Source of the DNA: an uncultured Gemmatimonadota bacterium
GTDB taxonomy: Bacteria > SM23-81 > DAOVCL01
Direction of reading: 5' to 3'
DNA: 64,000 bases
NCBI GenBank assembly: GCA_964626665.1
Contig: CAZVGK010000001.1
Coordinates: 141,914 to 205,913, forward strand
A program made the position numbers and the translations under genes. Below the pieces are notes generated by a model, which made no database searches, was not told the DNA's origin, and worked only from the letters and a program-made list of their open reading frames with translations. Shown in pieces: positions 2,393 through 40,000 of this stretch; within the stretch, counting starts at the first letter, position 1; each line of letters opens with the position of its first letter.

Positions 2393-4438
2393 ATGATGCA
2401 GTCACTCTATGCCGGTGTATCCGGATTGAAAAACCATTTAACCAGGATGGATGTCATCGGCAACAACATAGCCAATGTGAACACCATTGGCTTCAAGTCG
2501 GGAAGGGTAACCTTCAAGGAGGCAATGTCCGCCCTCCTGCGGGGGGCTACCAGGCCCTCGTTGGAGAGGGGAGGGGTCAACCCGATGCAGATTGGCTTGG
2601 GGATGGCCATAGGCTCAATTGACAACATCTTCACCCAGGGGAGCTTAGAGACCACAGGCATTATCACCGATCTGGCCCTGCAGGGCGATGGTTTCTTTGT
2701 CCTCAGGGACGGGGAAAAGAGGTATTTTACCCGAGCCGGGGCCTTCCGGGTGGACTCCTTAGGGAGAATGGTTAGCCCTGATGGTCTGATAGTTCAAGGG
2801 AAGATGGCCGATGCCTTAGGGGTGATCGGGTCGGGAACCGCAGTGGGCGATATCACCCTACCCTTTGGCCAGAAGACGGCAGCAAAGGCCACATCGGAGA
2901 TAGGCTTCACCTGTAATCTGGATTCGAGGGAGAGCCCTTTGAGCTCCATCTTTGACTCCAAATCCCTCTTGGCTATTGAGGAGGGAAGCAACGATATGAG
3001 CGGCCTCTATGCCAATGGAAATGCTAACAGCGCACTCGCCCTCACCCCGGGCGATACGGTAACGGTGCAGATAGGCGCCACATCTGTAACCTATACCTAT
3101 GTGGAAACAGACTCCGGAGCCACGGCTGATGACTTTCACACCATCAATGACCTCATAGCCGAGGTGAACAATGATTTTTCCGGCACGATTACCGCAAGCA
3201 TAGACTTGGATGGAGCCATAAACTTCACCAATGGTTCAGGTGGGGATATCACCCTCACCATCACCAGCTCCAATGCCACCCTACAGAGTAGCTTGGGAGC
3301 AGAAGGGGGAGTAAGCATTGCCAATGGGGGGTCTCACCTAAGCGATCAGTTCTCCCATACCTCGATGGGAGGTGATCTCTTGGTTAACCTCAGGGATTCC
3401 GAGGGGAATGGTCTGGAGATTGTAGCCACTGATGTGATCAACATCAGCGGCTCCATCGGGGGAACAGGGATTGGAGCCAGCAGCTTCACCGCTACCTCAT
3501 CAAGTACCCTGACCGATCTGGCTACTGCTATCGAGACTGCTTTTGACACCTCTGCCGCCGCGGGAGGTAGTGACATAGCGGAGGTAACCATCGACAGTGA
3601 TGGTTCTATCAGGGTGGGAACTGTGGCTGGAGCTCCTTCTCAGGTAACATCGGTTACCGTGAACTGCAGTGGAAAACCTGTCTTCAACACGGCGATGACC
3701 TTTATGCAGACTCAGCAGCCCACCACCGTTTCCCACTCCACCTCCATAACTGCATATGACAGCCAGGGGGGAACTCATATAATCACCTTCACCTTCACCA
3801 AGGATGCTACCGCGGAAAACATATGGGACTGGACGGCCTCGGTAGAGGAGCCAGCCACGATGATCAGCGGCTATTCGGGGAAGGTGGAATTCAATACTGA
3901 CGGCTCCCTGAAGAGCTTTAGCTATGATACGGGGAGCAGCTTCAAGTTCGCCCCAGGGACCGGTGCGGATAGCCCGGTGGAGATTAGCCTCAACCCAGGT
4001 GAGATGGGGGGTTTCACTGGCGTCACCCAGTTTGCCTCCCCCTCTACCACCATTGCCTCCAGCCAGGATGGATATGGAATGGGAACCCTGGACTCCATAT
4101 CCATAGGTGAAGATGGGACGATCACCGGCTCCTTCACCAACGGCGTGCTCCGTACCTTGGCCCAGATCTCCCTGGCTTCCTTTAAAAATCCTGAGGGGTT
4201 GAAGAAAGCAGGGGACAGCCTCTACCAGGAGACCACCAACTCCGGACTTCCTCTGATTGGATCAGCAGGAACCACCGTCCACGCCACCATCTCCTCCGGG
4301 GCCTTAGAGATGTCCAATGTGGACCTGGCTCAGGAGTTCGTCAATATGATCGTCGCTCAGAGGGGATTCCAGGCTAACGCCAGGATCATTACCACCAGCG
4401 ATGATATGCTGCGAGAGCTGGTCAACCTGAAGAGGTAA
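2393..4438 (+). CDS. flgE: Flagellar hook protein FlgE (long form with central insertion domains)
   Basis: N-terminal rod/hook domain (SLYAGVSGLKNHLTRMDVIGNNIANVNTIGFK) and C-terminal domain (DLAQEFVNMIVAQRGFQANARIITTSDDMLRELVNL); Ser/Thr/Gly-rich middle. Confidence 0.9.
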   Translation: MMQSLYAGVSGLKNHLTRMDVIGNNIANVNTIGFKSGRVTFKEAMSALLRGATRPSLERGGVNPMQIGLGMAIGSIDNIFTQGSLETTGIITDLALQGDGFFVLRDGEKRYFTRAGAFRVDSLGRMVSPDGLIVQGKMADALGVIGSGTAVGDITLPFGQKTAAKATSEIGFTCNLDSRESPLSSIFDSKSLLAIEEGSNDMSGLYANGNANSALALTPGDTVTVQIGATSVTYTYVETDSGATADDFHTINDLIAEVNNDFSGTITASIDLDGAINFTNGSGGDITLTITSSNATLQSSLGAEGGVSIANGGSHLSDQFSHTSMGGDLLVNLRDSEGNGLEIVATDVINISGSIGGTGIGASSFTATSSSTLTDLATAIETAFDTSAAAGGSDIAEVTIDSDGSIRVGTVAGAPSQVTSVTVNCSGKPVFNTAMTFMQTQQPTTVSHSTSITAYDSQGGTHIITFTFTKDATAENIWDWTASVEEPATMISGYSGKVEFNTDGSLKSFSYDTGSSFKFAPGTGADSPVEISLNPGEMGGFTGVTQFASPSTTIASSQDGYGMGTLDSISIGEDGTITGSFTNGVLRTLAQISLASFKNPEGLKKAGDSLYQETTNSGLPLIGSAGTTVHATISSGALEMSNVDLAQEFVNMIVAQRGFQANARIITTSDDMLRELVNLKR

Positions 4439-4454
4439 TAGTTAAAATGAAAGA

Positions 4455-4479
4455 GGCGGCAGAACTGGGTTCTGCCGCC
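4455..4479. repeat. Perfect palindromic hairpin immediately after the flgE stop
   Basis: ggcggcagaac-tgg-gttctgccgcc; no strong U-run, so REP-like rather than a classic terminator. Confidence 0.6.
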
Positions 4480-4645
4480 ATCCTCTCTTCCCGTCAGGTG
4501 AGGGCACCTACCTGCTCAGGGGTTAATTCTCCCCCACTGGCGGGAGGGTAGCCGCACTTTTAGATTGCGAAAGGACGCAGACTGAAGTCTGCAGCTACCG
4601 GCGGGACAATATAGTAGCTGAGCGGTCAGGTCCCCTGATTTGACC

Positions 4646-4669
4646 GTGGCAGAACAAGGGTTCTGCCAC
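4646..4669. repeat. Second copy of the GGCAGAAC / GTTCTGCC hairpin
   Basis: gtggcagaac-aagg-gttctgccac followed by ctcgttccatttt (compare ttccatttt after the 1036-1090 hairpins). Confidence 0.6.
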
Positions 4670-4727
4670 CTCGTTCCATTTTGTGCCCCCAGCAGCAAAG
4701 TCAAGCTTCGCTAAACTGTGAGGAAGG

Positions 4728-6251
4728 ATGAAGTTATTTTACATCTCCACCTTTCTATCCCTTGTCCTCTTGGTCTCATCCTGTGCCAAGAAGCCGACCA
4801 AGGAAGAGAATCATCCACCGGTAATCAGCGAGCTTAAAGCCAGCAAATTAGCCGTGGATTTCCAAACGGATGTGACCATCACCGCCCAGGTTACCGATCA
4901 GGATGAGGATGAGCTCAGTGCAACCTGGAGGGCTAACTGGGGAAACTTTAAGGCTAGCTCCCAGGATTCGGCCATCTGGACATCGCCTTCTTCCCCAGCT
5001 ATCGCCACCCTGACATTGGTGGTTTCCGATGGAAAGGGGGGAGGGGACAGGGACAGTCTGCAGATAGGGGTGAGGGACAACCCACCCCAAATAACCGGCC
5101 TCATCGCCCGTTCTCCCAACCTCACCTTGGGGGGAGAGACGGTCATCCTTTGCACTGCTTCTGATCCCGATGGGGATACACTCAGCTATGCCTGGGAAGG
5201 GTCTGGAGGGGCCTTCTCGTGGCTCCAGGGCGACTCCTGCGGCTGGGTAGCCCCCTCCCAGGAGGGAATCTATCAAATCACAGTAAAGGTTGTAGATGGG
5301 AAAGGGGGAGAGGTGGGAGACAGCCTCAGTATGAAGGTATATAGGGAGTCTGGATGTTGCTGGGTCTCCGATACCTTTCACGATCAGGTGGTGAAGGTCT
5401 CTCCGCAGGGGATAGTGCTCTTTCGGGTGACAGGCTTCTCCCAGCCCTTTGGTATGGCCGTCAACCCCTTAGAGGAAGCCTGTTGGGTGGCGGATACCTA
5501 CAATAACAGGGTGGTAAAGCTGGATTCTCAGGGAGGAAATGAGGCCATTGTAACAGGATTTCAGGCTCCAAAGGCCCTGTCCTGTTTCTATATTGAAGGG
5601 GCCTGTTGGATAACCGATTCCGGAGGAGATCAGGTGGTGAAGGTCTCTTATGATGGGCAAGAGCTGCTTAGGGTGGGAGGATTCCATTCTCCCCAATCAG
5701 TGGCCGTTGATCAGGCAAACGGAGGCTGTTGGGTGGCTGACACTGGGGGGGATCGGGTCGTTTGGCTCTCCGCAACGGCGCCCGATGGAGCATTGGTGGA
5801 TAGCCTTCCCTCTACGGATGCGCTGATTGTAGGGGGGATGGGTAGTCCGATAGCGGTCTCCGTGAGCAGATTTGATGGCTCCTGCTGGGTAGCGGAGAAG
5901 GACTCCAATAGGGTAGCGAAGATCTCCTCCCAAGGGCAGGTATTGCTGCGCATTCAGGACTTGCAGGCCCCTCAATCGGTAAGCGTAAACTCCCGGGATG
6001 GATGTTGTTGGGTGGCAGATACGGGAGCCAACCGGGTAGTTAAGTTCTCCCCTTCCGGCGATCTCCTCTTAGAGGTGAAGGATCAATTCCACCAGCCATA
6101 CTCCGTAGCGGTGAACCCTACCGATGGTTCTTGTTGGGTGGCAGACACCTATGGCTATCGGGTGGTAAAACTGTCATCTCAAGGTGATCTCCTCTACGCG
6201 ATAGGGGGTTTTACCGCTCCCCGGGCCATCTCAGTGAACCCCGGCCAATGA
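4728..6251 (+). CDS. Predicted lipoprotein: two Ig/PKD-like domains followed by a seven-bladed NHL/YVTN-type beta-propeller; function unknown
   Basis: Signal peptide with lipobox (LLVSSC); seven tandem blades each starting CW[VI][AST]D...R or Q V[VA]K; embedded between flgE and flbD-motAB with host-like codon usage. Confidence 0.7.
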   Translation: MKLFYISTFLSLVLLVSSCAKKPTKEENHPPVISELKASKLAVDFQTDVTITAQVTDQDEDELSATWRANWGNFKASSQDSAIWTSPSSPAIATLTLVVSDGKGGGDRDSLQIGVRDNPPQITGLIARSPNLTLGGETVILCTASDPDGDTLSYAWEGSGGAFSWLQGDSCGWVAPSQEGIYQITVKVVDGKGGEVGDSLSMKVYRESGCCWVSDTFHDQVVKVSPQGIVLFRVTGFSQPFGMAVNPLEEACWVADTYNNRVVKLDSQGGNEAIVTGFQAPKALSCFYIEGACWITDSGGDQVVKVSYDGQELLRVGGFHSPQSVAVDQANGGCWVADTGGDRVVWLSATAPDGALVDSLPSTDALIVGGMGSPIAVSVSRFDGSCWVAEKDSNRVAKISSQGQVLLRIQDLQAPQSVSVNSRDGCCWVADTGANRVVKFSPSGDLLLEVKDQFHQPYSVAVNPTDGSCWVADTYGYRVVKLSSQGDLLYAIGGFTAPRAISVNPGQ

Positions 6252-6448
6252 TCCATCTTAGCAGACTGAATGGAAAACCTTTGGTGATCAATGCGGAGTT
6301 GATAGAGCTCATCGAGAGAACGCCAGATACCATTCTCACCCTGACTACAGGGAGAAAGATAATGGTCAAGGAAGATGTTGCCGAGGTAGTGGAAAAGGTG
6401 AAAGAATATCTGAGGGAAGTTAGAATATGGACATTACCACCTTCATAG
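6248..6448 (+). CDS. flbD: Flagellar protein FlbD
   Basis: 66 aa; MIHLSRLNGKPLVINAELIELIERTPDTILTLTTGRKIMVKEDVAEVVEKV matches the FlbD pattern; directly upstream of motA. Confidence 0.8.
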   Translation: MIHLSRLNGKPLVINAELIELIERTPDTILTLTTGRKIMVKEDVAEVVEKVKEYLREVRIWTLPPS

Positions 6449-7221
6449 GAATCATCAGCGGGGTCTTCGTTCTGGTAGTGGCCATCTTTATGGGTGGGGG
6501 ACTGGCTATCTTTATCAACATCCCCTCTTTGATGGTGGTGGTAGGTGGAACCTTTGCCGCCACCCTGATTAATTTTCCCCTGCCGGAGATGCTCAGGTTG
6601 ATCAAGGTGGTGAAAAACGCCTTCCTGCACAAGGTGATCTCCCCGGTGGAGACGATCAATAAATTGGTTCACTTTGCGGAGATAGCGCGGAAGAACGGTA
6701 TGTTGGCCCTGGACAAAGAGCTGAAGGATATCGAGGATGCTTTCTTAAGGGAGGGGATGCAGTTGGCTGTGGATGGGATGGATCCGGAGCTGATCAGAAA
6801 TGTCTTAGAGGTGGAGAAGGCCTTTTTAGAGGAGAGACATACGGTAGGTCAGGGGATCTGTAAGGCTATAGGCAAATATGCCCCCGCTTTTGGTATGATG
6901 GGGACCCTGATCGGACTTATCCAAATGTTGAGAAGCCTTGATGATCCCTCGAAGATAGGGCCGGGGATGGCCGTGGCCCTGATCACCACCTTCTATGGGG
7001 CGATGATAGCCAACCTCCTCTTCCTCCCCTTGGCGGGAAAGCTGGAGACTCTCTCCCAGCAGGAGATGCTGCTCAAGGATTTGGCCATAGAGGGGATACT
7101 CGCCATCCAGGCCGGGGATAGCCCGCGTATAGTTGAACAGAAGCTACGGGCCTTCCTGGCCCCCCATCTGCGGGCGGGGATAAAGAGAAGAAAAGCGGGG
7201 GGGGAGGAAAGTGGCAATTAA
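6427..7221 (+). CDS. motA: Flagellar motor stator protein MotA
   Basis: MotA/TolQ/ExbB-type membrane protein (YAPAFGMMGTLIGLIQML); followed by motB. Confidence 0.85.
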   Translation: MDITTFIGIISGVFVLVVAIFMGGGLAIFINIPSLMVVVGGTFAATLINFPLPEMLRLIKVVKNAFLHKVISPVETINKLVHFAEIARKNGMLALDKELKDIEDAFLREGMQLAVDGMDPELIRNVLEVEKAFLEERHTVGQGICKAIGKYAPAFGMMGTLIGLIQMLRSLDDPSKIGPGMAVALITTFYGAMIANLLFLPLAGKLETLSQQEMLLKDLAIEGILAIQAGDSPRIVEQKLRAFLAPHLRAGIKRRKAGGEESGN

Positions 7222-7963
7222 GAGAAAGAAGAAAAAGGCAGAGGAGGGAGCACCTGAATGGATGGTCACTTATGGGGATCTGATGACCCTGTTGATGACC
7301 TTCTTCGTTCTGCTCTTCTCCTTCTCCTCCATTCAGGAGTCAAAGTTTAGAAATGCCATTGGTTCCCTGAAGGGTGCTCTTGGCGTGCTGTTAAAGAACC
7401 CCAAGGCAATGAGCCAGATAAAATCTGATTCCCATTTTCTCCCGCAGAGGGAAAAACGATTGATGGAAGCACTGAAAAAGGTGAGAAATCTTTCCCAGGA
7501 GGGAAAGTTCAAAGGGCAGATAAAGCTGATCAAAACAAAGAAGGGATGGTTGATCAGTATTTCCAATCCGGTGATGTTCGATATTGGCAAGGCCGACATA
7601 AAGCTTGGGCTCTATCCGGTCTTGGATATGATTGCCGATGTGATCAGGGCCAAACCGATGGAGGTGCGAGTAGTGGGCCATACCTGCGATCTTCCCATTC
7701 ACACCAGCCAGTTCCCTTCCAACTGGGAGCTTTCGACCACCAGGGCGGTAAATGTGGTAAAATACTTGGAATCCAAGGGTATCCCGGGGGCCAAATTCTC
7801 GGCTGAGGGAAGGTCTAAATACTCCCCCATTGTCCCTAACGACTCGGAGGAGCACAGAAGGTTAAATCGGAGGGTGGAGATATACCTCGATTCTATCAAT
7901 CCCCCGGTGGTGCCAGTAGAATCGATTAACCCTGTCCCATGGTCAGGAAAGGAGAAAAGTTAA
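7211..7963 (+). CDS. motB: Flagellar motor stator protein MotB (OmpA-like C-terminal domain), GTG start
   Basis: N-terminal TM helix, plug region, OmpA-like domain (VGHTCDLPIHTSQFPSNWELSTTRAVNVVKYL...RRVEI); GTG start with G-rich RBS. Confidence 0.85.
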   Translation: MAIKRKKKKAEEGAPEWMVTYGDLMTLLMTFFVLLFSFSSIQESKFRNAIGSLKGALGVLLKNPKAMSQIKSDSHFLPQREKRLMEALKKVRNLSQEGKFKGQIKLIKTKKGWLISISNPVMFDIGKADIKLGLYPVLDMIADVIRAKPMEVRVVGHTCDLPIHTSQFPSNWELSTTRAVNVVKYLESKGIPGAKFSAEGRSKYSPIVPNDSEEHRRLNRRVEIYLDSINPPVVPVESINPVPWSGKEKS

Positions 7964-8550
7964 TGGCAACCAAAAAGACGGAAACTGAAAAAGAGAAGAA
8001 GGGAAACTCACCTGCCGAAGTTCCTGAGGCTAAGGTAAAAAAGGGGGGAGAGGGGGACCAGCCAAAGAAGGGATTTATTCCCGGCAGAATGAAGCTAATC
8101 GCCCTTCCCCTGATTGTGGCGATTATATCCTGGGTGGTCATTACCAAGGTTATCTCCCCAAAGCTACTGGCCCAGAAGAAGGATTTAGAGAAGAAGAAGA
8201 CAGAGCTGAAAGAGGAACCACCCAAGGAGAAGCCAAAGGACGACATGGTCGGCCAGATCTACACCATTGAAAACATTATAGTTAACCCGGCAGATTCTAA
8301 CGGGGAGAGGTTCGTTAAGACTTCCATAGCCTTGGAGATGGAGCAAGCCAAACTTGCCGAAGAGCTCACCAAGAGGGATGTTCAACTACGGGACATATTG
8401 ATAGGCATCTTCACCAGCAAGACGGTAGAGGAAATCACTAACCCCGCCAAGAGGGAAAGTCTCAGACAAGAAATCAAGGGAAAGATAAACTCCCTTCTGG
8501 TAGGTGAAAAAATAAAGAATGTCTATTTCACGGATCTGGTAATCCAATAG
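7963..8550 (+). CDS. fliL: Flagellar basal-body-associated protein FliL
   Basis: Single TM helix plus C-terminal FliL-type domain (IYTIENIIVNPADSNGERFVKTSIALEM); start moved to the internal ATG at 7963, which has an AGGAAAGGAG RBS. Confidence 0.8.
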   Translation: MATKKTETEKEKKGNSPAEVPEAKVKKGGEGDQPKKGFIPGRMKLIALPLIVAIISWVVITKVISPKLLAQKKDLEKKKTELKEEPPKEKPKDDMVGQIYTIENIIVNPADSNGERFVKTSIALEMEQAKLAEELTKRDVQLRDILIGIFTSKTVEEITNPAKRESLRQEIKGKINSLLVGEKIKNVYFTDLVIQ

Positions 8551-17275: not shown

Positions 17276-18033
17276 GAAAAATCCCTTATATGATAAGCTT
17301 TCCCAGTGGAAAAGGGGGGGTGGGGAAAACCAATTTGGTGGCCAGTTTAGCAGTAGCCCTCTCCCAAAAGGGGAAGAGGGTAATGATCTTGGATGGGGAT
17401 TTGGGTTTGGCCAATGTGGACCTCCTCTTTGGGGTGAATCCATCTTTTACTCTCCAACATGTTCTCTTGGGGAGAAAGGATTTGCCGGAAATTATTGTAG
17501 ATGGTCCCCAGGGGGTGCAGATCATTCCAGCCAGTTCGGGGGTGGATGACCTCCTTAGACTGGAGGAAAGGGAGATGAAGAGGTTGATCAAGGAGTTCCG
17601 GCTCTTAGGTCAGAGCACAGATTTTCTCCTCATAGACACCCCCCCCGGCCTGAGTCCCAATGTGCTGAATTTTGTTTTGGCCTCTGATCTGGCCATAGTC
17701 ATTACCACCCCGGAGGTTACATCCATAACGGACGCCTATGCTACCATAAAGGTCATCTCCCTGCGACAGCCCACCCCGCAACTGCCCTTAGTAGTTAATA
17801 TGGTCGGGGGAAAGAGGGAGGCATCCGAGGTGGTAGAGAGGATTGGACTGGTGGCTGCCAGGTTCCTTAAGGTTCAGGTAGAGAATTTGGGGTTTATCCC
17901 CTCTGATCAATCGGTCCCCCGATCAGTGGCTAAGCAATTGCCATTTTACCTGGCTTTCCCGCATTCTCCCGCCTCCCAGGGGGTTGCCACCCTGGCCCAG
18001 AGGTTGATAAAGCGGGAACCCTTTGGTGAATGA
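17272..18033 (+). CDS. flhG: Flagellar number regulator FlhG/FleN (MinD-type ATPase)
   Basis: Deviant Walker A SGKGGVGKT; start chosen at the ATG overlapping the flhF stop (ATGA); the ORF track start at 17218 is the alternative. Confidence 0.8.
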   Translation: MRKIPYMISFPSGKGGVGKTNLVASLAVALSQKGKRVMILDGDLGLANVDLLFGVNPSFTLQHVLLGRKDLPEIIVDGPQGVQIIPASSGVDDLLRLEEREMKRLIKEFRLLGQSTDFLLIDTPPGLSPNVLNFVLASDLAIVITTPEVTSITDAYATIKVISLRQPTPQLPLVVNMVGGKREASEVVERIGLVAARFLKVQVENLGFIPSDQSVPRSVAKQLPFYLAFPHSPASQGVATLAQRLIKREPFGE

Positions 18034-18263
18034 ACCAGATAATCAACAGATTGGCCAAAGCCGTTGCCTTCTCCTTGGCTGCGGTTACCGTCATCTGCGG
18101 CCTTATCTTTGATGTTGGGATAGTAAGGATATTGGTGCGCACCTTAGCAGTTTATCTCTTCTTTTTCTATGAAATCAGATTTTTGGGGAGGATAATAGGG
18201 AGGATGATAGTCTCCGCGCTGGCCGAAGGGGAGACAACCCCAGAGGAGGAGGTGCAGAGCTAA
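18030..18263 (+). CDS. Hypothetical small membrane protein (77 aa) between flhG and fliA
   Basis: ORF only; two hydrophobic segments; translationally coupled position. Confidence 0.3.
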   Translation: MNQIINRLAKAVAFSLAAVTVICGLIFDVGIVRILVRTLAVYLFFFYEIRFLGRIIGRMIVSALAEGETTPEEEVQS

Positions 18264-18269
18264 TAGAAG

Positions 18270-18998
18270 ATGGATAACTCTCAAAGGGAAAAGTTACTCT
18301 TGAAGTATGCCCATCTGGTTAAGTATGTGGTAAACCGGATGTTGATTAGTATCCCTCCCTGTTTGGAGAAGGATGATCTGATCAGTGCCGGAACGATTGG
18401 TCTGTTGGAAGCAATTGAGAAGTATGACTCGGGGAAGGGGATAAACTTCGAGACCTATGCCATTTACCGCATCCGAGGGGCGATATTGGATGAGCTGAGG
18501 TCTGTTAACTGGGCACCCAGAACAGTTCAGGAGAAGGCACGGGAACTGGAGAGGGCCTATCGCCATTTGGAGCAGAGGTGGGGAAGGATGGCCACAGATG
18601 AGGAGATAACCCAGGAGTTAGGGATAACCCAGGAAGAACTTTATCGCAGGTTGGATGAGGCCCGGGGGATATCTACCCTCTCTCTGGAGCAATTTCAGTA
18701 CTCCCCTAATGGAGGAGGACAAGTAACCCTCTTAGATAGTTTGAGCAGCAGCTCCCCCTCTCCTCTGGCGGATACGGAAAGGGTGGAATTGAGGGAGGCC
18801 CTGGCCAATGTCCTCGCCACATTGCCCGAAAAGGAGAGGATGGTGATGACCCTTTACTACTATGAGGAGTTAACCCTCAAGGAGATTGGGGATGTGCTTC
18901 ACCTATCCGAGTCAAGGGTTTGTCAAATCCATACTAAGGTGATCATCAAACTGCGCGTAAGGTTGAGAAAGGTTTTAGAACCAGCAGGGGCCTCTTGA
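18270..18998 (+). CDS. fliA: Flagellar sigma factor FliA (sigma-28)
   Basis: Sigma-70 family regions 2-4; region 4 HTH (LTLKEIGDVLHLSESRVCQIHTKVIIKLR); downstream of flhFG. Confidence 0.85.
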   Translation: MDNSQREKLLLKYAHLVKYVVNRMLISIPPCLEKDDLISAGTIGLLEAIEKYDSGKGINFETYAIYRIRGAILDELRSVNWAPRTVQEKARELERAYRHLEQRWGRMATDEEITQELGITQEELYRRLDEARGISTLSLEQFQYSPNGGGQVTLLDSLSSSSPSPLADTERVELREALANVLATLPEKERMVMTLYYYEELTLKEIGDVLHLSESRVCQIHTKVIIKLRVRLRKVLEPAGAS

Positions 18999-19093
18999 GA
19001 GGTGGGAAGCTGCAAATTTTAAAGTGTAAGAGCAAAAATTACCTTTGTTTCCATCCCCATTAAAGCAACATCTTTCCTTTTACTTTGCCTTTT

Positions 19094-19165
19094 TCAATTC
19101 TCAATCTCTGGCTGCAAAACTTGACACAAATTTTAAGAAGTTGCCTTATGAAACCAGCTAAAGCT
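19094..19165. repeat. Intergenic repeat downstream of fliA, related to 62758-62815
   Basis: caatctctggctgcaaaac...ttatgaaaccagcta. Confidence 0.5.
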
Positions 19166-19175
19166 TAGAAGAGAG

Positions 19176-19424
19176 ATGGCTGAATCGATAGATTTTCCTA
19201 AAGACCTTCCGGAACCGGGAAATATCAACCGGGTCCAGGGGGTAGGACACCGCCCCAACGAATCGGAGAAGAGGAAATTTGCTCAGCTCTTAGAGAAGGA
19301 TGAGGAGAAGAAAAAGAAAAAGAAGGAGCACCTTCCCCCTGCGCCGCAGGGCGAGAAGGGTGAACCCCCTAAAAAGGGTTCTTCAGCAAATGGGCGGGGG
19401 AAATTCATCGATGTGACCGTTTGA
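19176..19424 (+). CDS. Hypothetical Lys/Glu-rich protein (82 aa)
   Basis: ORF only; low-complexity charged sequence; follows fliA. Confidence 0.3.
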   Translation: MAESIDFPKDLPEPGNINRVQGVGHRPNESEKRKFAQLLEKDEEKKKKKKEHLPPAPQGEKGEPPKKGSSANGRGKFIDVTV

Positions 19425-20557
19425 TGATGAGAGCTGAGAAGCTGAGGGGCAAGCCCTTATTCTACATAGCAGAACGACCTGGTGAGGATCTCCTCGCGGG
19501 CCTAAGGCCGGGTGCGGTTCTCCGAGGGAGGGTAGTGAGGATACTTCCTCCTGATAAGGCCATAGTTAGAATAAGGGGGTTAAACCTTGTGGCCGAAAAC
19601 CACAGCGGGCTAAAGAAAGGGGATCGTTTTCGGGCCGGGGTGAAGAAGATGGGCCTCCCTTTGGCCTTGACCCTTTTGGAGGAGAATCCCCCTGATGAAA
19701 TCTCCTCCCGCCTAAAGGAAATCGGCATCCAGCCCACCCCTCTAAACAGGGCTTTGGCACAGGCCCTATTGGCCAACGATTTTCCCTTAAACAGAGAGGA
19801 AATGGAAAGTTTTCTTTCCTTATGGAAGAGCGTTTCTTCTGGGTTGGGGGAGGATTCAGTTAGGATAAAAACTGTCATCCTTTTCAAAAAGCTGCAAGCT
19901 GCACCTTCCCCTGAGATGCTTGAGGCCCTTAAGGGGGAGAAGCTTCTTATGGGGAAGAAGATAGATGAGGCCATCCGCTTTTTTCCTCAGCTTGGTGAGG
20001 CCCTAAGCCATCTTCCCGTCCTCCCTGGTGACCCCCAATTTCCCGCCAGGGTGCAGAAGCTTCCTCAGGAGGAGGATGATGTTATAAGAAAGGCTCTACC
20101 TTTGTTGCAGGTGTCCCCGGCGAAGGTTACCCCTCAATTGAAGGATTTCATCAGGGATGTGGGCTATATCAGGGATTTGCAGTTCCTATCTGATAGCTCA
20201 AAGGTTATGACCTATCGGCAGATTCCTATCCAAGAGGGGGATAGGGTGCAAACCCTGCAGTTAAAGATCGAGGGGAAAGGCCGCTCGGTGTGGTTAAGGC
20301 TTTTAGGGGAGATCAGGAAGGGAGGGCGGGTTGAGCTAGTGGTTCACTTAGATGGCCAGAGGGTCCTTTTAAAGGTCTGGGCGGAAAAGGAAAGAGCCGG
20401 TTCCCTCTTTGAGGGAAAATTGCGGGAATTAGAGGAAAAGATAAAAGGCCTGGGCCTTAAGCTGGCCACCCCCCTTATCTGGCAGCAGAAGATCTCCCTC
20501 TCCCCTCTTTCGTTTCTCATCTCCTCTGGGGAGGGGGCCGTAGATCTCAAAGGGTGA
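19421..20557 (+). CDS. Hypothetical protein (378 aa), possibly flagellum-associated by context
   Basis: ORF with start overlapping the previous stop; no motif recognised. Confidence 0.4.
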   Translation: MMMRAEKLRGKPLFYIAERPGEDLLAGLRPGAVLRGRVVRILPPDKAIVRIRGLNLVAENHSGLKKGDRFRAGVKKMGLPLALTLLEENPPDEISSRLKEIGIQPTPLNRALAQALLANDFPLNREEMESFLSLWKSVSSGLGEDSVRIKTVILFKKLQAAPSPEMLEALKGEKLLMGKKIDEAIRFFPQLGEALSHLPVLPGDPQFPARVQKLPQEEDDVIRKALPLLQVSPAKVTPQLKDFIRDVGYIRDLQFLSDSSKVMTYRQIPIQEGDRVQTLQLKIEGKGRSVWLRLLGEIRKGGRVELVVHLDGQRVLLKVWAEKERAGSLFEGKLRELEEKIKGLGLKLATPLIWQQKISLSPLSFLISSGEGAVDLKG

Positions 20558-20568
20558 GGGGAAATTTG

Positions 20569-20633
20569 CAATTATCAATTAACAATGAGCAATTAAGAAA
20601 TCCCCCCTATACAATGGAAAAAGAGCAGAAAGA
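20569..20633. repeat. Partial copy of the caattatcaat repeat upstream of the DUF342-like gene
   Basis: caattatcaattaacaatgagcaattaagaaa...acaatggaaaaag. Confidence 0.5.
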
Positions 20634-20711
20634 AGATAGCATCCTTTATAGACTGGCCGCTGAGCTTGTCTCCTATCTCTATGACCTCGATCCGGAGGAG
20701 GAGGAATAAAA

Positions 20712-21575
20712 GTGGGGCAGACGAAGGTTATCGCAGGGGACATCGATCGGATGAGCGGAGATCTCTCCTTTGAGGGTTCCCTCAGGGTGGAGGGGAGTAT
20801 CAAGCGGGGACAGCGACTGAAGATCTCCGGAGACCTTCTGGTGGAGGGGGAGATTGAGGATGCGGAGGTGGAAACCGGTGGGATGATCACCGTTCAGGGA
20901 GGGATTACGGGAGAGGGTAAGGGGGTGATCTTGGCCTCCGGAGGGGTGAGAGCGAAGTATATAAATAATCAAACTGTAATCAGCCACAGTTTAGTGGAGG
21001 TGAGTGAGGAGATCAGGCAGGCCATCATAAAGGCCGATCAAATGGTGCTGGTTACCCAGGGGAGGGGTTGGATAGTAGGGGGCACAATTACTGCGGGGAG
21101 GGAGGTAAGGGCCAGGAACATTGGCAGTCGCTATGCTACTCCCACTATCATTAAGGTGGGTTTTCTCCCCGAGGTGTGGGATAAGTTGGATGGATTGAGG
21201 AGAAAGATAGCGATGAAGGAGAGGATAAGGACCCAGATGGGGAAGGAGCTGAGCTACCTGCGAAAGCTCAAGAAGCAGGAAGGAAAACTTCCCCCCAGGA
21301 AGGAGGAGCTACTTCAAGAGATAGACTTTCTCCATGGAATCTACCGGGACCAGCTTAAGGAGATGAAGGAGGAGTGGGATTTTTTGGAGAATCACCTCCA
21401 GGAGCTAACCGTGGGTCAGGTGACAGTGGAGGAGATGATCTTCCCCGGGGTGGTCATTAATATCTTAAACTCTCAACGAAAATTAGAGGAAGTCAAAAGG
21501 GGGGTTATCTTCAAAAAGGATAAGGATGAGGTAATTGACTTACCCTGGGAAGTTGGCAATTCCAAGGGCAAGTGA
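20712..21575 (+). CDS. FapA/DUF342-like protein (beta-helical repeats plus coiled-coil tail), GTG start
   Basis: Gly-rich repeats (GDLLVEGEIEDAEVETGGMITVQGGITGEGKGVILASGGVRAKYI) followed by a charged helical region; GGAGGAGGAGG RBS. Confidence 0.4.
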   Translation: MGQTKVIAGDIDRMSGDLSFEGSLRVEGSIKRGQRLKISGDLLVEGEIEDAEVETGGMITVQGGITGEGKGVILASGGVRAKYINNQTVISHSLVEVSEEIRQAIIKADQMVLVTQGRGWIVGGTITAGREVRARNIGSRYATPTIIKVGFLPEVWDKLDGLRRKIAMKERIRTQMGKELSYLRKLKKQEGKLPPRKEELLQEIDFLHGIYRDQLKEMKEEWDFLENHLQELTVGQVTVEEMIFPGVVINILNSQRKLEEVKRGVIFKKDKDEVIDLPWEVGNSKGK

Positions 21576-37025: not shown

Positions 37026-40000
37026 TTATTTGAGTAACACCATTTTTCTGGTAAGCGAGAAATCTCCTGCTTGAAAACGGCAAAAATAGATACCACTTGT
37101 CACCTCTTTTCCACTCCGATCCTTGCCATCCCAGTAAGTTTTGTAATACCCACTTGACTTATCCTCATCCACCAGAGTTTTCACTAATTGCCCTTTTATA
37201 TTATAGATCTTGAGGGTCACATAGGTGTTTCCCGCGAGTCCGTAATTGATCTCCGTGATTAGGTTAAAAGGATTAGGGTAGTTCTGGGAGAGGGTAAACA
37301 CAGATGGCACTGGAGATTCGTTGCACGAGGGTACGGACTTTTTATCCTCTCGAACATAATGGCCGGTGGTGACCAGGACGAAATCCCTCTCATAATCACT
37401 CAACTGCTTGGGGGCAGAAAAGGCCAGCCTCACCTCTTGCCCAGGAATCAACTCGGCATAGACTCCATCTGGCTGCAAAAGGGACTTCAGGACAGAACCA
37501 TTTGCTGAGTGAAGGGCCTTAGCCAGTGGACAACTCCGAATCTTTAAGGACACATCTTCAGCCCCAACCAGCCCAATAAAATCTAAATCATAAGGTATCT
37601 GCCAAAGGAGACGCACCTCTACCTCTCTCCCCTCAGATACTCTCCATGGCAACTCTACCAACTCCGTATACTTGTTCTCCCTATAACTGATTCCCAATAC
37701 TGTCTGAGATTTGGGGAAATCATCTCCAATAATCAACATAGGTTCCGCTTTGGGACGCCTTTTGCTCTGGTCTTTAGCAACCGTTCCACCTATGACCAAG
37801 GCCACTTTCCTAATCCCTTTAACCTGGCCGAAATTAACCGTGAGCTCATCCCCTCCTCTCCCCCTGAAAACCAGACCATCCGCCGCTGAAACATATTTTG
37901 AGAATTCTCCACCCAAAGAATCAACAGCAGATATTGGGCCAGTCAGCTTCTTGTAACCCAATATCTTTCCCGATGTGCTAACTGCAACCTTAACTTCAGA
38001 TGGATGCTCCACCGCCATAAGCTGTAGCTGATCGATCCAGGAGTGTTCATTTTCAAATTCGCGAAGCTCAAGATAGTAGTTTCCGTCTTCAGGGACAAGG
38101 GGTTGTTGAAGCTGGTAGTAATCGCTTATGTCCTTACCCTCATTCTCCAGCAGTTCAGCAAGAGGTAGAAGGTTATTGTCCTCTACACTCTTCTCTCCAT
38201 CCCAGGTAAACACATAGGGACAACCATTGTAGGGCGAATGATGATGATAAAAAGCTCCCATATCTGCCCTTGTCCCATCAGGATCCTTTGGACTAAGGGG
38301 ATAACCTGTATCTATGCAAGGTGAACCCGCTTGTAGGTGATAATCACCATTGGCAGAATTTAAGAACATTGGATCAGCAGATATATCTTCTCTACCTACT
38401 GCACAACCCTGGTAGTTAACGCCATTACCCCATAGGTCATTGTAAGATATGTTTGGGAAAAGATCAACATCACTATAAATACCATAATCGCTATTACTGG
38501 TGATTATGGTATTTGTAATAGTCAGATAGCAGTTATCAATGCATCGAATACCCGTGTTATTACCAGGGATCGTGTTGTTGATAATATTTGGACAGCATTG
38601 TAGTGTGCATTGAACAGCAATATTATTATTAGTGAGCAAATTCCTCTCAATATCGGGGGAGGCAGAAAACATACAACCTATCCCAAAATGTGACATATCG
38701 GTAATGGTATTACTACGGATTTTGCAGAGATGAGATGATGACCCCCAGCAGAGGATACCATAGGTATCATCACCGTTGCCAAGGATTGAGTTGTTACTAA
38801 TAGTTAGATAGTTAGAAGTAGGTGAGCAGGCTAATCCCTCGTTTTCAACAGTAATCTTATTGTGGGAAATCTCCCCCCACCCATTAGCGACAACAGCATA
38901 TTGACAGTGACTTATCTCGCTGTTGCTTATGGTGGCAAATGAATTGAACCAGACCCCTTGATAGGCGTCTTTTATGGCGCAAAAATTTAAAGTTAAATTA
39001 CCACCATCGCCAATATGGGTGGATATCCCTCCCCAATCTGAGATAGAAGGGGCCGAAGTATTTGATGAACAAAAGGTAATTTCGTAGTCATCTACCCCGA
39101 TAGCCCTTAATGCCCCATCCACCAAAAGCTCACATTTATCTGGATAAAGCCCTATATTTTGGACATCACTATTTGCCGAGAAGTAAACAGTAACCCCAGG
39201 GTCTATAGTGAGGAGGGCTCCATCATCCACAGTTACATCGCCATATACATAGATGTCCCCTGACCAGGTGGTGTTTTCAGTAATATGTCCATGAACTCCA
39301 CATGCAAGTTCGGTTTCATAAGGTATGTTGTTGTGTTTAGTAACTGTAACCTTCAACTCATCATAGGTGGAAAAAGAGGTGTTGAAGGTCGCCTCTCCGT
39401 TAGCATCGGTATATTGGATTTCGTGATAGTCCTCACTCTCTTTCCATAGACATACCAAGGCATCCGGAACACCAGCATTGATAGTAATACTGCTGGGGCC
39501 GATCTGATAGAAGCAGGGATGGGAGACGGCAAGAGGTTGAGGCACCCCTGTCCAGATCCGCAGGGCCGGATCCCCAAGGACATGGAAATCCTCGAACTCA
39601 ACCCTGGTTACCTCGGGGGTAGGTGCCCATTTTGAAGGATATCCTGCCCCACCTGTGAGGACATATTTGTCGAACATCCAGAACTTGCCGTAGTTCAGGA
39701 TCGCACCCAACCGGTCTGTCGGGCTACCGATCTGTGTGCCGCAGTACCCGGGGTCGAAGTCGTCCCAGATGGCGTCGTAGAACCCCTTGCAAAGCTCATC
39801 GTTATACCCGCTGTAGCTGATCCTGGTCGAGCCGATGAAGCCCACAACCCCCTTCCCCTGGGCCTTCAACAGTGCCTCTCCCAGGCAATCCGTGATCAGA
39901 TAATCGGGGGAGTCCAGATCGGTCTCCCCATCGAACCATCCGGTCCGGCAATTAATGCTGAACATCACCGGGAGCTTATCACCGTTACCCAGGCTGGGAA

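What the first reader, a model, noticed from the sequence alone, without database searches (positions are those of the whole stretch)
4728..6251. Seven-bladed beta-propeller lipoprotein embedded between flgE and flbD-motAB
A 507-aa lipoprotein (lipobox LVSSC) with two Ig/PKD-like domains and seven blades of a CWVAD...RVVK repeat sits inside the flagellar operon, directly upstream of flbD-motA-motB, with host-like codon usage and a tight operon position. Known periplasmic motor accessories (Vibrio MotX/MotY/FlgT, spirochete collar proteins, Campylobacter PflA/PflB) are lineage-specific, and I do not recognise this architecture among them. It is a candidate new periplasmic stator scaffold or hook-associated component.
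Basis: partly seen in the sequence, partly recalled or inferred. Interest (0 to 1): 0.65.

Follow-up and report, generated by a model that had tools for sequence, protein, structure and literature searches.

The report
Propeller lipoprotein inserted in flagellar operon
A Zixibacteria genome carries a lipid-anchored protein (two Ig-like domains plus a seven-bladed propeller) wedged between its flagellar hook and stator genes; it is probably an optional, lineage-specific add-on to the flagellar motor, because it is conserved in six related assemblies but has decayed to a pseudogene in a seventh.

Summary
Window 4728-6251(+) encodes a 507-aa protein with a lipoprotein signal (LVSSC), two Ig-like domains and a seven-bladed NHL/PknD-type propeller (AlphaFold pLDDT 93.7). 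It lies between flgE and flbD-motA-motB. Its stop overlaps the flbD start (ATGA), and its codon usage is host-like.

The flgE-X-flbD arrangement recurs in six Candidatus Zixiibacteriota-lineage assemblies (73-98% identity). dN/dS is 0.14-0.16, similar to FlgD. The nearest outgroup has flgE directly followed by flbD, so X is an insertion into an ancestral junction.

In one close relative (L170) X is a pseudogene, with frameshifts, a stop codon and deletion of Ig2 plus the propeller. flgD, flgE, flbD, motA and motB are intact there, so X is apparently dispensable.

A related clade (36-38% identity) sits at the tail of another flagellar cluster, next to a TPR/AMIN protein. About 150 other homologue loci have no flagellar genes nearby.

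X matches no known flagellar family and shows no sign of a catalytic site.

Best reading, with confidence about 0.45: a non-enzymatic, optional periplasmic motor accessory recruited from a family of envelope binding propellers. The main rival is an envelope protein that is merely co-expressed with motility. This is a moderate lead and is unproven.

The parts
4728..6251 (+). X: CDS for a 507-aa lipoprotein with two Ig-like domains and a 7-bladed NHL-type propeller (stop codon included)
   Evidence: ORF; Pfam hits; AlphaFold2 model
4728..4784 (+). Signal peptide and lipobox (residues 1-19, ...LVSS-C19)
   Evidence: Read directly from the sequence. A lipobox is conserved in all 12 homologues. The model shows a helix at residues 7-16.
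4785..4820 (+). Post-cysteine tether AKKPTKEENHPP (residues 20-31). It is predicted to be disordered, yet residues 19-31 are 85% invariant among orthologues.
   Evidence: Low pLDDT; conservation. It does not fit the Bacteroidota surface-export signal C-X-K-(D/E)2 (PMC5080379).
4821..5075 (+). Ig-like domain 1 (residues ~32-116)
   Evidence: Beta-sandwich in the model; sub-threshold Cadherin_5 hit
5076..5345 (+). Ig-like domain 2 (residues ~117-206), Big_9/PKD type
   Evidence: Big_9 1.3e-10, PKD 2.9e-6 and K319L-like_PKD 1.7e-6; model
5346..6248 (+). Seven-bladed NHL/PknD-type beta-propeller (residues 207-507). Blades start at residues 211, 252, 293, 334, 386, 427 and 469. Blade 4 carries an insertion of about 11 residues.
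   Evidence: Vgb_lyase 7.3e-20 and NHL 5.6e-12; 28 strands in the model; blade table; PknD 1rwi 5.7e-19
6248..6251 (+). ATGA overlap of the X stop codon and the flbD start codon (translational coupling)
   Evidence: The overlap is conserved in L001, L002, L003 and L086, and is retained in the L170 remnant.
4720..4727 (+). Purine-rich Shine-Dalgarno-like GAGGAAGG directly before the X start codon
   Evidence: The AGGAA/AGAAG-type motif is conserved in the orthologue spacers.
4455..4479 (+). GC-rich hairpin directly after the flgE stop (GGCGGCAGAAC-TGG-GTTCTGCCGCC). It probably acts as an mRNA processing, attenuation or stability element that sets expression of X and the downstream genes.
   Evidence: conserved in 4-5 of 6 related loci
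4646..4669 (+). Second copy of the hairpin. It bounds a ~190-nt structured insert that is present only in the window and L086.
   Evidence: fold z-score -5.0; no Rfam family
2393..4438 (+). flgE (hook protein), the upstream neighbour
   Evidence: Pfam
6248..6448 (+). flbD, the downstream neighbour, coupled to X
   Evidence: Pfam FlbD 4.5e-26
6427..7963 (+). motA-motB stator genes
   Evidence: Pfam MotA_ExbB, MotB_plug and OmpA
7939..8550 (+). fliL
   Evidence: Pfam FliL 1.9e-23

Best explanation
X is a lineage-specific, non-essential accessory protein of the flagellar apparatus in a small clade of Zixibacteria.

Shown:
- X is an intact gene under purifying selection.
- It was inserted into the ancestral flgE-flbD junction.
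- It is translationally coupled to flbD, on the same strand and in line with the hook gene upstream and the stator genes downstream.
- It encodes a lipobox signal, two Ig-like domains and a seven-bladed NHL/PknD-type propeller with no recognisable catalytic site.

Inferred:
- After Sec export and lipidation at Cys19, X is tethered to a membrane facing the periplasm, most likely the inner leaflet of the outer membrane.
- The two Ig-like domains act as a stalk of roughly 8 nm.
- The propeller serves as a protein- or glycan-binding platform. It docks on a periplasmic part of the motor (the MotB OmpA-like domain or peptidoglycan, the FliL ring, or the P/L-ring region) to position or stabilise it.
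- This is comparable in logic to Vibrio, Campylobacter and spirochete scaffolds, and to TolB binding the OmpA-like protein Pal next to the MotAB-like TolQR.
- X improves motor performance rather than enabling it, which is why it can be lost.
For: - The arrangement flgE-X-flbD-motA-motB-fliL occurs in the window and in P0001, L086, L003/L007, L002 and L001/L008, at 73-98% identity.
- The ATGA stop/start overlap with flbD is conserved in all of them.
- dN/dS is 0.14-0.16 with no indels over 507 codons. That is the same range as FlgD (0.14-0.18) and FliL (0.12-0.16).
- Codon usage is host-like.
- The outgroup L171 has flgE, a 64-nt gap, then flbD, so X is an insertion.
- A sister-group clade (P0011 and L009/SM23_31, 36-38% identity, same architecture) lies at the end of a flagellar cluster, co-directional and overlapping with a TPR/AMIN periplasmic protein. 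TPR proteins are the recurrent stator scaffolds (bioRxiv 10.64898/2026.05.29.728556).
- There is a precedent for a propeller-containing motor accessory. Borrelia FlcD/Bb0236 was mapped in contact with FliL and FlbB (PMC11750108).
- A catalytic role is unlikely. The blades are highly similar to each other (45%). There are only 4 His, none invariant among homologues. The invariant residues are structural G/P/W plus the repeat-motif D, K and R. The NCBIfam Vgb models score 32.5 and 18.7 bits against a cutoff of 600.
- The organism encodes T9SS cargo, so it has an outer membrane.
- The post-Cys sequence does not fit the Bacteroidota surface-export signal.
Against: - In L170 (FlgE 81% and MotA 87% identical to the window's), X is a pseudogene. 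It has two 1-nt deletions after the ATG, TGG->TGA at W71, a 1-nt deletion near codon 105, and codons ~128-491 deleted. FlgD, FlgE, FlbD, MotA and MotB are intact there. So X is not required for the flagellum in that lineage.
- The clade carrying X is narrow.
- The same-architecture subfamily also contains members with no flagellar neighbours: P0016, and the P0030/Delongbacteria group, which is paired with an unrelated 491-aa protein.
- The wider family is anchored by SLH, T9SS or pilin modules and is non-flagellar.
- Fold search finds no flagellar protein.
- There is no direct evidence for localisation or a binding partner.
- The 289-nt structured spacer with hairpins after flgE could mean lower or separate expression.
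Confidence: 0.45

Rival explanations
1. X is an envelope binding protein (an adhesin, sensor or matrix/glycan binder) that is only co-expressed with motility. It was inserted into the flagellar operon and uses its promoter, but it is not part of the motor. It acts elsewhere in the periplasm or at the cell surface, for example in surface sensing or attachment while swimming.
For: - The family is a modular, displayed binding propeller fused to SLH, T9SS C-terminal domains, pilin N-termini and PKD domains, and it is almost always non-flagellar.
- The closest structures are the PknD sensor domain and an archaeal S-layer propeller with PKD domains.
- X was lost in L170 without loss of the flagellar genes.
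- Sister subclades are not flagellum-linked.
- The highly conserved post-Cys linker could be a sorting signal of unknown kind.
Against: - Two different clades sit inside two different flagellar operon positions, one of them with a TPR/AMIN partner.
- The ATGA coupling to flbD is strictly conserved.
- The linker does not fit the known FCB-group surface-export signal.
Confidence: 0.3
2. X is an enzyme of the Vgb-lyase, lactonase or PAL-like propeller type. It would modify peptidoglycan, a flagellar glycan or another envelope polymer to help the rod and hook pass through the wall.
For: - The Pfam Vgb_lyase model scores 71.4 bits, above its cutoff of 50, and there are weak SGL and Phytase-like hits.
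- Like Vgb, X has seven blades.
- No FlgJ-type muramidase is visible in the part of the cluster that was examined.
Against: - The Vgb match comes from the repeat itself. The aligned stretches cover only a few blades.
- The NCBIfam Vgb(A) and Vgb(B) models score 18.7 and 32.5 bits against a cutoff of 600.
- X has only 4 His, none conserved, and no asymmetric cluster of invariant polar residues. The blades are near-identical repeats, as in the non-enzymatic PknD sensor.
Confidence: 0.08
3. X is a selectively neutral passenger gene on its way to being lost, with no current function.
For: X is a pseudogene in L170. The 98%-identical variant P0001 carries an in-frame 7-aa deletion at the blade 2/3 boundary.
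Against: - dN/dS is 0.14-0.16 against dS of 0.8-1.3.
- There are no indels or stops in five lineages.
- Conservation is even across all three domains.
Confidence: 0.05

Closest known systems
PknD extracellular sensor domain of Mycobacterium tuberculosis (PDB 1RWI) and the 'Pizza' designs derived from it
   Same: It has NHL-type four-stranded blades with the motif G-x-[VW]-[YW]-V-[AT]-D-x-x-N-x-R-V-V-K-L. Identity is about 30% (phmmer 5.7e-19; Foldseek hit). It is extracytoplasmic and has no known catalysis.
   Different: PknD has six blades, not seven. It is attached to a transmembrane Ser/Thr kinase rather than a lipid anchor and Ig-like stalk. It has no flagellar context.
Virginiamycin B lyase (Vgb; Pfam PF24684; PDB 2Z2N and 2QC5)
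   Same: It is a seven-bladed propeller. The Pfam family model scores above its gathering cutoff (71.4 vs 50 bits), and Foldseek gives TM 0.72 normalised to the target.
   Different: Vgb is a cytoplasmic Mg-dependent enzyme. X has a lipoprotein signal and Ig-like domains, scores far below the NCBIfam Vgb cutoffs, and shows no conserved His/Glu cluster.
Borrelia burgdorferi collar protein FlcD (Bb0236)
   Same: It is a lineage-specific periplasmic motor accessory that contains a beta-propeller domain. It was mapped next to FliL and FlbB, close to the stators (PMC11750108). X may work in a similar way.
   Different: FlcD is required for collar assembly and motility, whereas X is dispensable in at least one lineage. 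FlcD belongs to a 16-fold spirochete collar for which Zixibacteria have no evidence.
TolB-Pal in the TolQRA system
   Same: TolB is a periplasmic beta-propeller encoded beside a MotAB-family stator (TolQR). Its propeller binds an OmpA-like peptidoglycan-binding protein, Pal. The analogous target for X would be the OmpA-like domain of MotB (established knowledge; reviews PMC7391070 and PMC8928145 were listed).
   Different: TolB is a six-bladed PD40 propeller with a different N-terminal domain and is not lipidated. X gave no PD40 or TolB profile hit. This is an analogy only.
Lineage-specific motor scaffolds of Vibrio and Campylobacter (MotX/MotY, FlgT, lipoprotein FlgP, PflA/PflB/PflC/PflD)
   Same: They are lineage-specific periplasmic proteins, some of them lipoproteins, that build rings or cages around the stators (PMC7990780 and PMC12222027, listed).
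   Different: They use different folds (SLR/TPR, OmpA-like, beta-sandwich, HtrA-like). No profile match to X was found. Those components are generally needed for motility, or for high torque.
Archaeal S-layer YVTN propeller with PKD domains (PDB 1L0Q)
   Same: It combines a seven-bladed propeller with a PKD Ig-like domain for envelope display. It was the best full-architecture fold match (TM 0.53 normalised to the query).
   Different: The domain order is reversed. It is archaeal, has no lipid anchor and has no motility link.

Membership tests
NHL-repeat beta-propeller (Pfam PF01436 and related propeller families) | Tandem repeats of about 40 residues that match the NHL profile above the gathering score | tested here: met
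   NHL scores 45.5 bits against a cutoff of 20 (E 5.6e-12). There are seven repeats of 39-52 residues.
NHL-repeat beta-propeller (Pfam PF01436 and related propeller families) | Closed propeller of four-stranded blades (classically six blades) | tested here: met
   The AlphaFold2 model has 28 strands, i.e. 7 blades, at pLDDT >95. Seven blades rather than six matches Vgb and YVTN-type propellers.
Virginiamycin B lyase (Vgb) | Full-length match to the curated Vgb(A)/Vgb(B) models | tested here: not met
   NF000096 scores 32.5 bits and NF000022 scores 18.7 bits, against cutoffs of 600. The Pfam PF24684 family-level hit is above its cutoff (71.4 vs 50) but is driven by the repeats.
Virginiamycin B lyase (Vgb) | Conserved His/Glu metal-binding catalytic site (residue identities recalled from the literature, not verified here) | tested here: inconclusive
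   X has only 4 His (residues 29, 218, 320, 455), and none is invariant in the 12-sequence alignment. A direct residue-to-residue alignment with Vgb across the active site was not obtained.
Bacterial lipoprotein (SPase II substrate) | N-terminal positive residue, hydrophobic stretch, and lipobox [LVI][ASTVI][GAS]C | tested here: met
   MK-LFYISTFLSLVLL-VSS-C19. The equivalent Cys is conserved in 11 of 12 homologues. Actual lipidation cannot be tested here.
Bacteroidota surface-exposed lipoproteins (LES-dependent) | C-X-K-(D/E)2-X at positions +2 to +6, with net negative charge (PMC5080379) | tested here: not met
   X has C-A-K-K-P-T-K-E-E-N. The acidic pair is at +8/+9 and the net charge is +1. 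Whether the rule applies to Zixibacteria is unknown.
Known flagellar accessory families (FlgT, FlgP, FlgO, MotX, MotY, PflA/B, FliL, FlbB, FapA and others) | Profile match to the family model | tested here: not met
   No flagellar family appears among the Pfam hits (E<=0.01) or the NCBIfam hits (E<=1) for X. No flagellar protein appears in the PDB sequence search or fold search.
Spirochete collar protein FlcD/Bb0236 | Sequence or structural homology to Bb0236, and location in the collar | not testable with these tools
   Only the published description of a beta-propeller domain is available (PMC11750108). No sequence or model was accessible.
TolB | TolB N-terminal domain plus a six-bladed PD40 propeller | tested here: not met
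   There are no TolB_N or PD40 hits. X has seven NHL-type blades.
Flagellar gene (operational definition: conserved in a flagellar operon and co-inherited with it) | Conserved operon position across relatives | tested here: met
   Six assemblies have flgE-X-flbD. A second clade sits in another flagellar cluster.
Flagellar gene (operational definition: conserved in a flagellar operon and co-inherited with it) | Retained wherever the flagellar genes are retained | tested here: not met
   X is a pseudogene in L170, where flgD, flgE, flbD, motA and motB are intact. It is absent from the outgroup L171.

The most novel reading that the evidence does not exclude
X, together with its sister clade that is paired with a TPR/AMIN protein at the tail of another flagellar cluster, defines a previously unrecognised class of motor component in FCB-group bacteria. 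It would be a lipid-anchored NHL-propeller scaffold that grips the OmpA-like domain of MotB (or FliL) from the outer-membrane side. That would make it a flagellar counterpart of TolB-Pal, and the first NHL-propeller lipoprotein in any flagellar motor.
Probability: 0.2. Interest if true: 0.65.

Novelty: new variant of a known kind. Interest (0 to 1): 0.4.

Why it matters
Flagellar motors have diversified by repeatedly adding lineage-specific periplasmic scaffolds, and nearly all known examples come from cultured Proteobacteria, Campylobacterota and spirochetes.

If X is a motor accessory, it would show the same process in an uncultured FCB-group phylum, using a different building block: an NHL propeller on an Ig-like stalk with a lipid anchor. 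It would also provide a natural gain, maintenance and loss series, from an outgroup without X, through six lineages with X, to one lineage with a pseudogene. That series could be used for comparative cryo-ET or metatranscriptomics.

If X is not a motor accessory, it is simply one more envelope NHL-propeller protein that landed in an operon.

Tried and rejected
- MotA-based search for outgroups. The nearest MotA relatives (60-64% identity) sit in a different arrangement (fliC-fliS-fliD-flgM-flbD-motA-motB-motB2), so they say nothing about the flgE-flbD junction. A FlgE-based search was used instead.
- The first phylogeny script timed out. It was redone with a faster distance method. Support for the same-architecture group is weak: 13 of 50 bootstrap replicates give exactly that set, and most others give near-identical sets.
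- The L009 TPR/AMIN partner and the Delongbacteria 491-aa partner are not detectably related to each other, and neither has a homologue in the window.
- An Rfam scan of the flgE-X spacer found nothing significant.
- No paralogue of X exists in the window.
- Co-folding X with MotB or FliL was considered but not attempted.
- P0007, the closest non-orthologue (41% identity), lies on a 3.5-kb contig whose upstream side is missing, so its context is uninformative.
- A literature search for 'NHL repeat' with 'flagellar motor' found nothing relevant, and no paper on Zixibacteria flagella was found.
Full report
OBSERVATION. The ORF is real and lies exactly where stated: window 4728..6251(+), 507 aa. 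Its N-terminus, MKLFYISTFLSLVLLVSSC, is a lipoprotein signal with Cys19 as the lipidated residue. All 12 full-length homologues that I aligned have an equivalent lipobox. Pfam places Big_9/PKD/K319L-PKD on residues ~134-200 and gives a sub-threshold cadherin-like Ig hit on residues 28-115. It also gives Vgb_lyase (71.4 bits, cutoff 50), NHL (45.5 bits, cutoff 20) and SGL on residues 238-488.

An AlphaFold2 model built on an 87-sequence alignment is confident (mean pLDDT 93.7, pTM 0.81). It shows a signal helix, a disordered tether (residues 17-30), two beta-sandwiches, and then 28 strands, which is seven four-stranded blades. The repeat CW[VI][STA][DE]...[RQ]V[VA]K begins at residues 211, 252, 293, 334, 386, 427 and 469. 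The blades are 45% identical to each other on average, and blade 4 carries an insertion of about 11 residues.

The neighbours are FliK, FlgD, a PF12611 'Flagellar_put' protein and FlgE upstream, and FlbD, MotA, MotB, FliL, FliM, FliN, FliO, FliP and FliQ downstream. FlhF, FlhG, FliA and FapA lie further on. Codon usage is host-like (RSCU r = 0.84, GC3 0.61). Upstream there is a 289-nt structured spacer after flgE.

WHAT FAMILY IT BELONGS TO. The closest solved sequences are the PknD extracellular sensor propeller (1RWI, E 5.7e-19, about 30% identity) and the 'Pizza' designs derived from it. Vgb lyase follows at E 7e-10. Foldseek against the PDB returns the same set, plus an archaeal S-layer YVTN propeller with PKD domains (1L0Q) and seven-bladed designer propellers. 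No flagellar protein appears.

NCBIfam gives only far-sub-threshold hits. For example, ScyF scores 63 bits against a cutoff of 350, and Vgb(B) scores 32.5 against 600. The homologue search found 513 relatives. Five are orthologues (73-98% identity), and identity then drops sharply to <=41% for a heterogeneous family. In that family the propeller is fused to SLH domains, PKD arrays, T9SS sorting domains or type IV pilin N-termini. The propeller is therefore a modular binding domain displayed on the envelope, and X is the lipid-anchored version.

Nothing points to catalysis. X has four histidines, none conserved. The residues that are invariant across the 12 homologues are G, P and W plus the repeat-motif D, K and R. 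The blades are near-copies of one another.

ORGANISM. The orthologous loci in the species-representative genome set are titled Candidatus Zixiibacteriota MAG (L007, 78% identity) and 'bacterium' (L008). Zixiibacteriota is a phylum of the FCB group. The window also encodes T9SS cargo, including a C25 peptidase with a Por_Secre_tail domain. From this I infer a diderm cell with an outer membrane.

IS THE POSITION CONSERVED? Yes, within a narrow clade. The arrangement flgE-X-flbD-motA-motB-fliL is present in L001/L008 (73%), L002 (75%), L003/L007 (78%), L086 (80%), P0001 (98%) and the window. The ATGA overlap with flbD is identical in all of them.

Pairwise dN/dS for X is 0.14-0.16, at dS of 0.8-1.3, with no indels over 507 codons. 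For comparison, FlgD is 0.14-0.18, FliL 0.12-0.16, FlgE 0.09-0.11 and MotA 0.05-0.085. Invariant positions are spread evenly over Ig1 (56%), Ig2 (57%) and the propeller (61%). The predicted-disordered stretch after the lipidated Cys, C-x-KKPTKEEN-x-PP, is 85% invariant. X is therefore a functional, constrained gene and not decaying cargo.

IS IT AN INSERTION, AND IS IT REQUIRED? The clade is isolated. MotA drops from 87-95% to <=64% identity, and FlgE from 81-100% to 54%. In the nearest FlgE outgroup (L171), flgE is followed after 64 nt by flbD-fliL-fliM, with no X. From established knowledge, this is also the canonical order in spirochetes and Firmicutes. X was therefore inserted into an ancestral flgE-flbD junction.

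The most informative locus is L170 (GCA_975905635.1), whose FlgE is 81% and MotA 87% identical to the window's. There, a 672-nt gap separates flgE from flbD, and the gap holds a remnant of X. Codons 3-127 are recognisable (63% identity) but carry lesions:
- two 1-nt deletions directly after the ATG;
- TGG->TGA at W71;
- a 1-nt deletion near codon 105.

Codons ~128-491, which cover Ig2 and the whole propeller, are deleted. Only the last 16 codons survive, still abutting the flbD ATGA. FlgD, the PF12611 protein, FlgE, FlbD, MotA and MotB in L170 align end to end with the window's proteins and contain no stops.

So the insertion predates this split, and X was later lost in one lineage that kept its hook and stator genes. 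I cannot exclude an intact second copy elsewhere in that MAG. A 98%-identical variant (P0001) also carries an in-frame 7-residue deletion at the blade 2/3 boundary.

IS THERE OTHER EVIDENCE FOR A FLAGELLAR LINK? Yes, one independent piece. P0011 (38% identity, on a 200-kb contig) and L009/L087 (bacterium SM23_31, 36%) have the same architecture of lipobox, two Ig-like domains and seven blades. They lie at the end of a flagellar cluster with the order flhB-flhA-flhF-flhG-(small ORF)-fliA-(small ORF)-HDOD-GAF-TPR/AMIN protein-X'. All genes are co-directional, and in P0011 the last genes overlap. TPR proteins are the recurrent periplasmic stator scaffolds (PflB, FlcA, FlcE; bioRxiv 10.64898/2026.05.29.728556).

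In a neighbour-joining tree of 82 propellers, the 15 proteins with this architecture group together, though with weak support. X's clade is sister to the rest. Other members of that group are not next to flagellar genes. P0016 sits among metabolic genes. The P0030/Delongbacteria group (L005, L006, L012-L015, L088) is instead paired with a conserved 491-aa protein that has no Pfam match and is unrelated to the TPR protein. Among about 160 fetched homologue loci, only the two clades above have flagellar genes within 10 kb. The few 'FlgD' hits elsewhere probably reflect FlgD_ig-type Ig domains of T9SS-type proteins.

TOPOLOGY. This part is inference. X has a lipobox, an 11-residue tether, and no acidic residue immediately after the Cys. 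The Bacteroidota surface-export signal is C-X-K-(D/E)2-X, is position-critical and needs a net negative charge (PMC5080379). X has C-A-K-K-P-T-K-E-E-N, with a net charge of +1, so it does not fit. That mildly favours a periplasm-facing lipoprotein, but the rule has not been tested in Zixibacteria. The strong conservation of the tether shows that it has some function, either in sorting or as a contact.

MECHANISM. My best-supported reading, at about 0.45 confidence, is that X is an optional, lineage-specific periplasmic accessory of the flagellar apparatus. It is made together with FlbD, MotA, MotB and FliL. It is lipid-anchored, probably to the outer membrane, and projects a non-enzymatic seven-bladed binding platform on a two-Ig stalk. 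It docks on a periplasmic motor element, with the MotB OmpA-like domain or peptidoglycan, FliL, or the P/L-ring region as candidates.

The gene-level facts are shown: insertion, coupling, constraint, architecture, and a second flagellar-linked clade. Localisation, binding partner and effect on the motor are inferred. The loss in L170 argues that X improves motor performance rather than enabling it.

The rivals are:
- An envelope binder that is merely co-expressed with motility (0.30). This is supported by the family's general biology and by the loss in L170.
- A propeller enzyme acting on wall or glycan (0.08). The sequence evidence disfavours it.
- A neutral passenger gene (0.05). The dN/dS values contradict it.

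COMPARISON WITH KNOWN SYSTEMS. By descent, X is an NHL/PknD-type propeller. The membership tests for NHL and for a lipoprotein are met. The tests for Vgb lyase (curated models), TolB and every profiled flagellar family are not met.

By possible function, the nearest precedent is Borrelia FlcD/Bb0236. [quoted passage not shown] Homology to it could not be tested. The lipoprotein and TPR scaffolds of Vibrio and Campylobacter (PMC7990780 and PMC12222027, listed) are analogous in logic but differ in fold. TolB-Pal beside TolQR is an attractive mechanistic analogy and nothing more. No paper linking NHL repeats to flagellar motors, or describing Zixibacteria flagella, was found. Public sources give the protein no name.

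VERDICT. X is a genuine, constrained insertion into a flagellar operon, confined to a narrow clade, with a recognisable but generic fold. It is a plausible new type of motor accessory that is demonstrably dispensable in one relative. Novelty: a new variant of a known kind (lineage-specific periplasmic flagellar accessories), conditional on the unproven flagellar role. Otherwise it is just a new member of the NHL-propeller envelope proteins. Interest is about 0.4: a worthwhile lead with a useful natural gain/loss series, but in an uncultured organism and without direct functional evidence.

Noticed in passing
window 4439-4727 (hairpins at 4455-4479 and 4646-4669); also 1039-1058: A GC-rich hairpin (GGYGGCAGAAC-N3/4-GTTCTGCCRCC) follows the flgE stop in most orthologous loci. 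In the window and L086, a ~190-nt highly structured insert (whole spacer -127 kcal/mol, z = -5.0) lies between two copies of the hairpin. It matches no Rfam family. A related hairpin follows fliK. This could be a REP/MITE-like element or an mRNA processing or stability signal that sets the FlgE-to-downstream expression ratio.
   Followed up: partly
L170 3025-3696 (GCA_975905635.1, CDLKUW010000006.1): A pseudogene remnant of X lies between intact flgE and flbD. It has frameshifts, a W71 stop, and a deletion of codons ~128-491. The last 16 codons and the ATGA junction with flbD are preserved, which suggests that the 3' end of X carries the flbD translation-initiation signals.
   Followed up: yes
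window 45042-46934(-) and 46953-48353(-): Two adjacent ORFs have strongly atypical codon usage (GC3 0.41-0.44, RSCU r 0.16-0.18, against 0.6-0.9 for all other genes except the 201-nt flbD, r 0.34). One is a 630-aa protein with a FlgD_ig/Por_Secre_tail T9SS sorting domain. The other is a 466-aa protein with a weak BamB/PQQ-like propeller hit. They lie next to tuf in the rpoBC/fusA/tuf cluster and are probably a horizontally acquired insert.
   Followed up: partly
window 37026-41471(-) and 41489-42703(-): A 1481-aa C25 (gingipain-like) peptidase carries a beta-helix region and a T9SS C-terminal sorting domain, and a neighbouring 404-aa protein carries a FlgD_ig domain. This indicates that the Zixibacterium has a type IX secretion system and hence an outer membrane.
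   Followed up: partly
P0001 (98% identical orthologue, JGI, 12-kb contig): It has an in-frame 7-residue deletion (FYIEGAC) that removes the boundary between blades 2 and 3 of the propeller. This may be a tolerated variant, an early step of decay, or an assembly artefact.
   Followed up: no
L009 2882-4492 and the neighbour of P0011: A 536-560-aa periplasmic protein with an AMIN domain, TPR repeats and a weak DUF6115-like C-terminus lies immediately upstream of the X-like gene, at the tail of a fliA-HDOD-GAF flagellar cluster. It is a candidate TPR-type motor scaffold partner in that lineage. No homologue is present in the window.
   Followed up: partly
L005 8482-9957, L006, L012-L015, L088: In the Delongbacteria-type clade, the X-like lipoprotein is always preceded by a conserved 491-aa protein with no Pfam match (35-100% identity among loci). 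This is a two-gene module of unknown function with no flagellar genes nearby.
   Followed up: partly
L167, L168, L169: The closest MotA relatives outside the clade (60-64% identity) sit in the arrangement fliC-fliS-fliD-(flgM)-flbD-motA-motB-motB2-HD/HDOD. This includes two tandem MotB paralogues after one MotA.
   Followed up: no
window 18030-21575: After flhG the cluster continues with a 77-aa ORF, fliA, an 82-aa ORF, a 378-aa protein with only a weak FliK-like C-terminal hit, and FapA. The 378-aa protein may be a second hook-length-control-like or otherwise uncharacterised flagellar protein.
   Followed up: no
X residues 210/211, 252, 293, 334, 386, 426/427, 469 (window 5355-6134): Every blade begins with a Cys (the CW motif). 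This Cys is also in the consensus of the wider 87-sequence family (DGSCWVAD). It would give seven equivalent cysteines, one at the start of the first strand of each blade (my inference: near the central channel). Their redox state or any metal binding is unknown.
   Followed up: no
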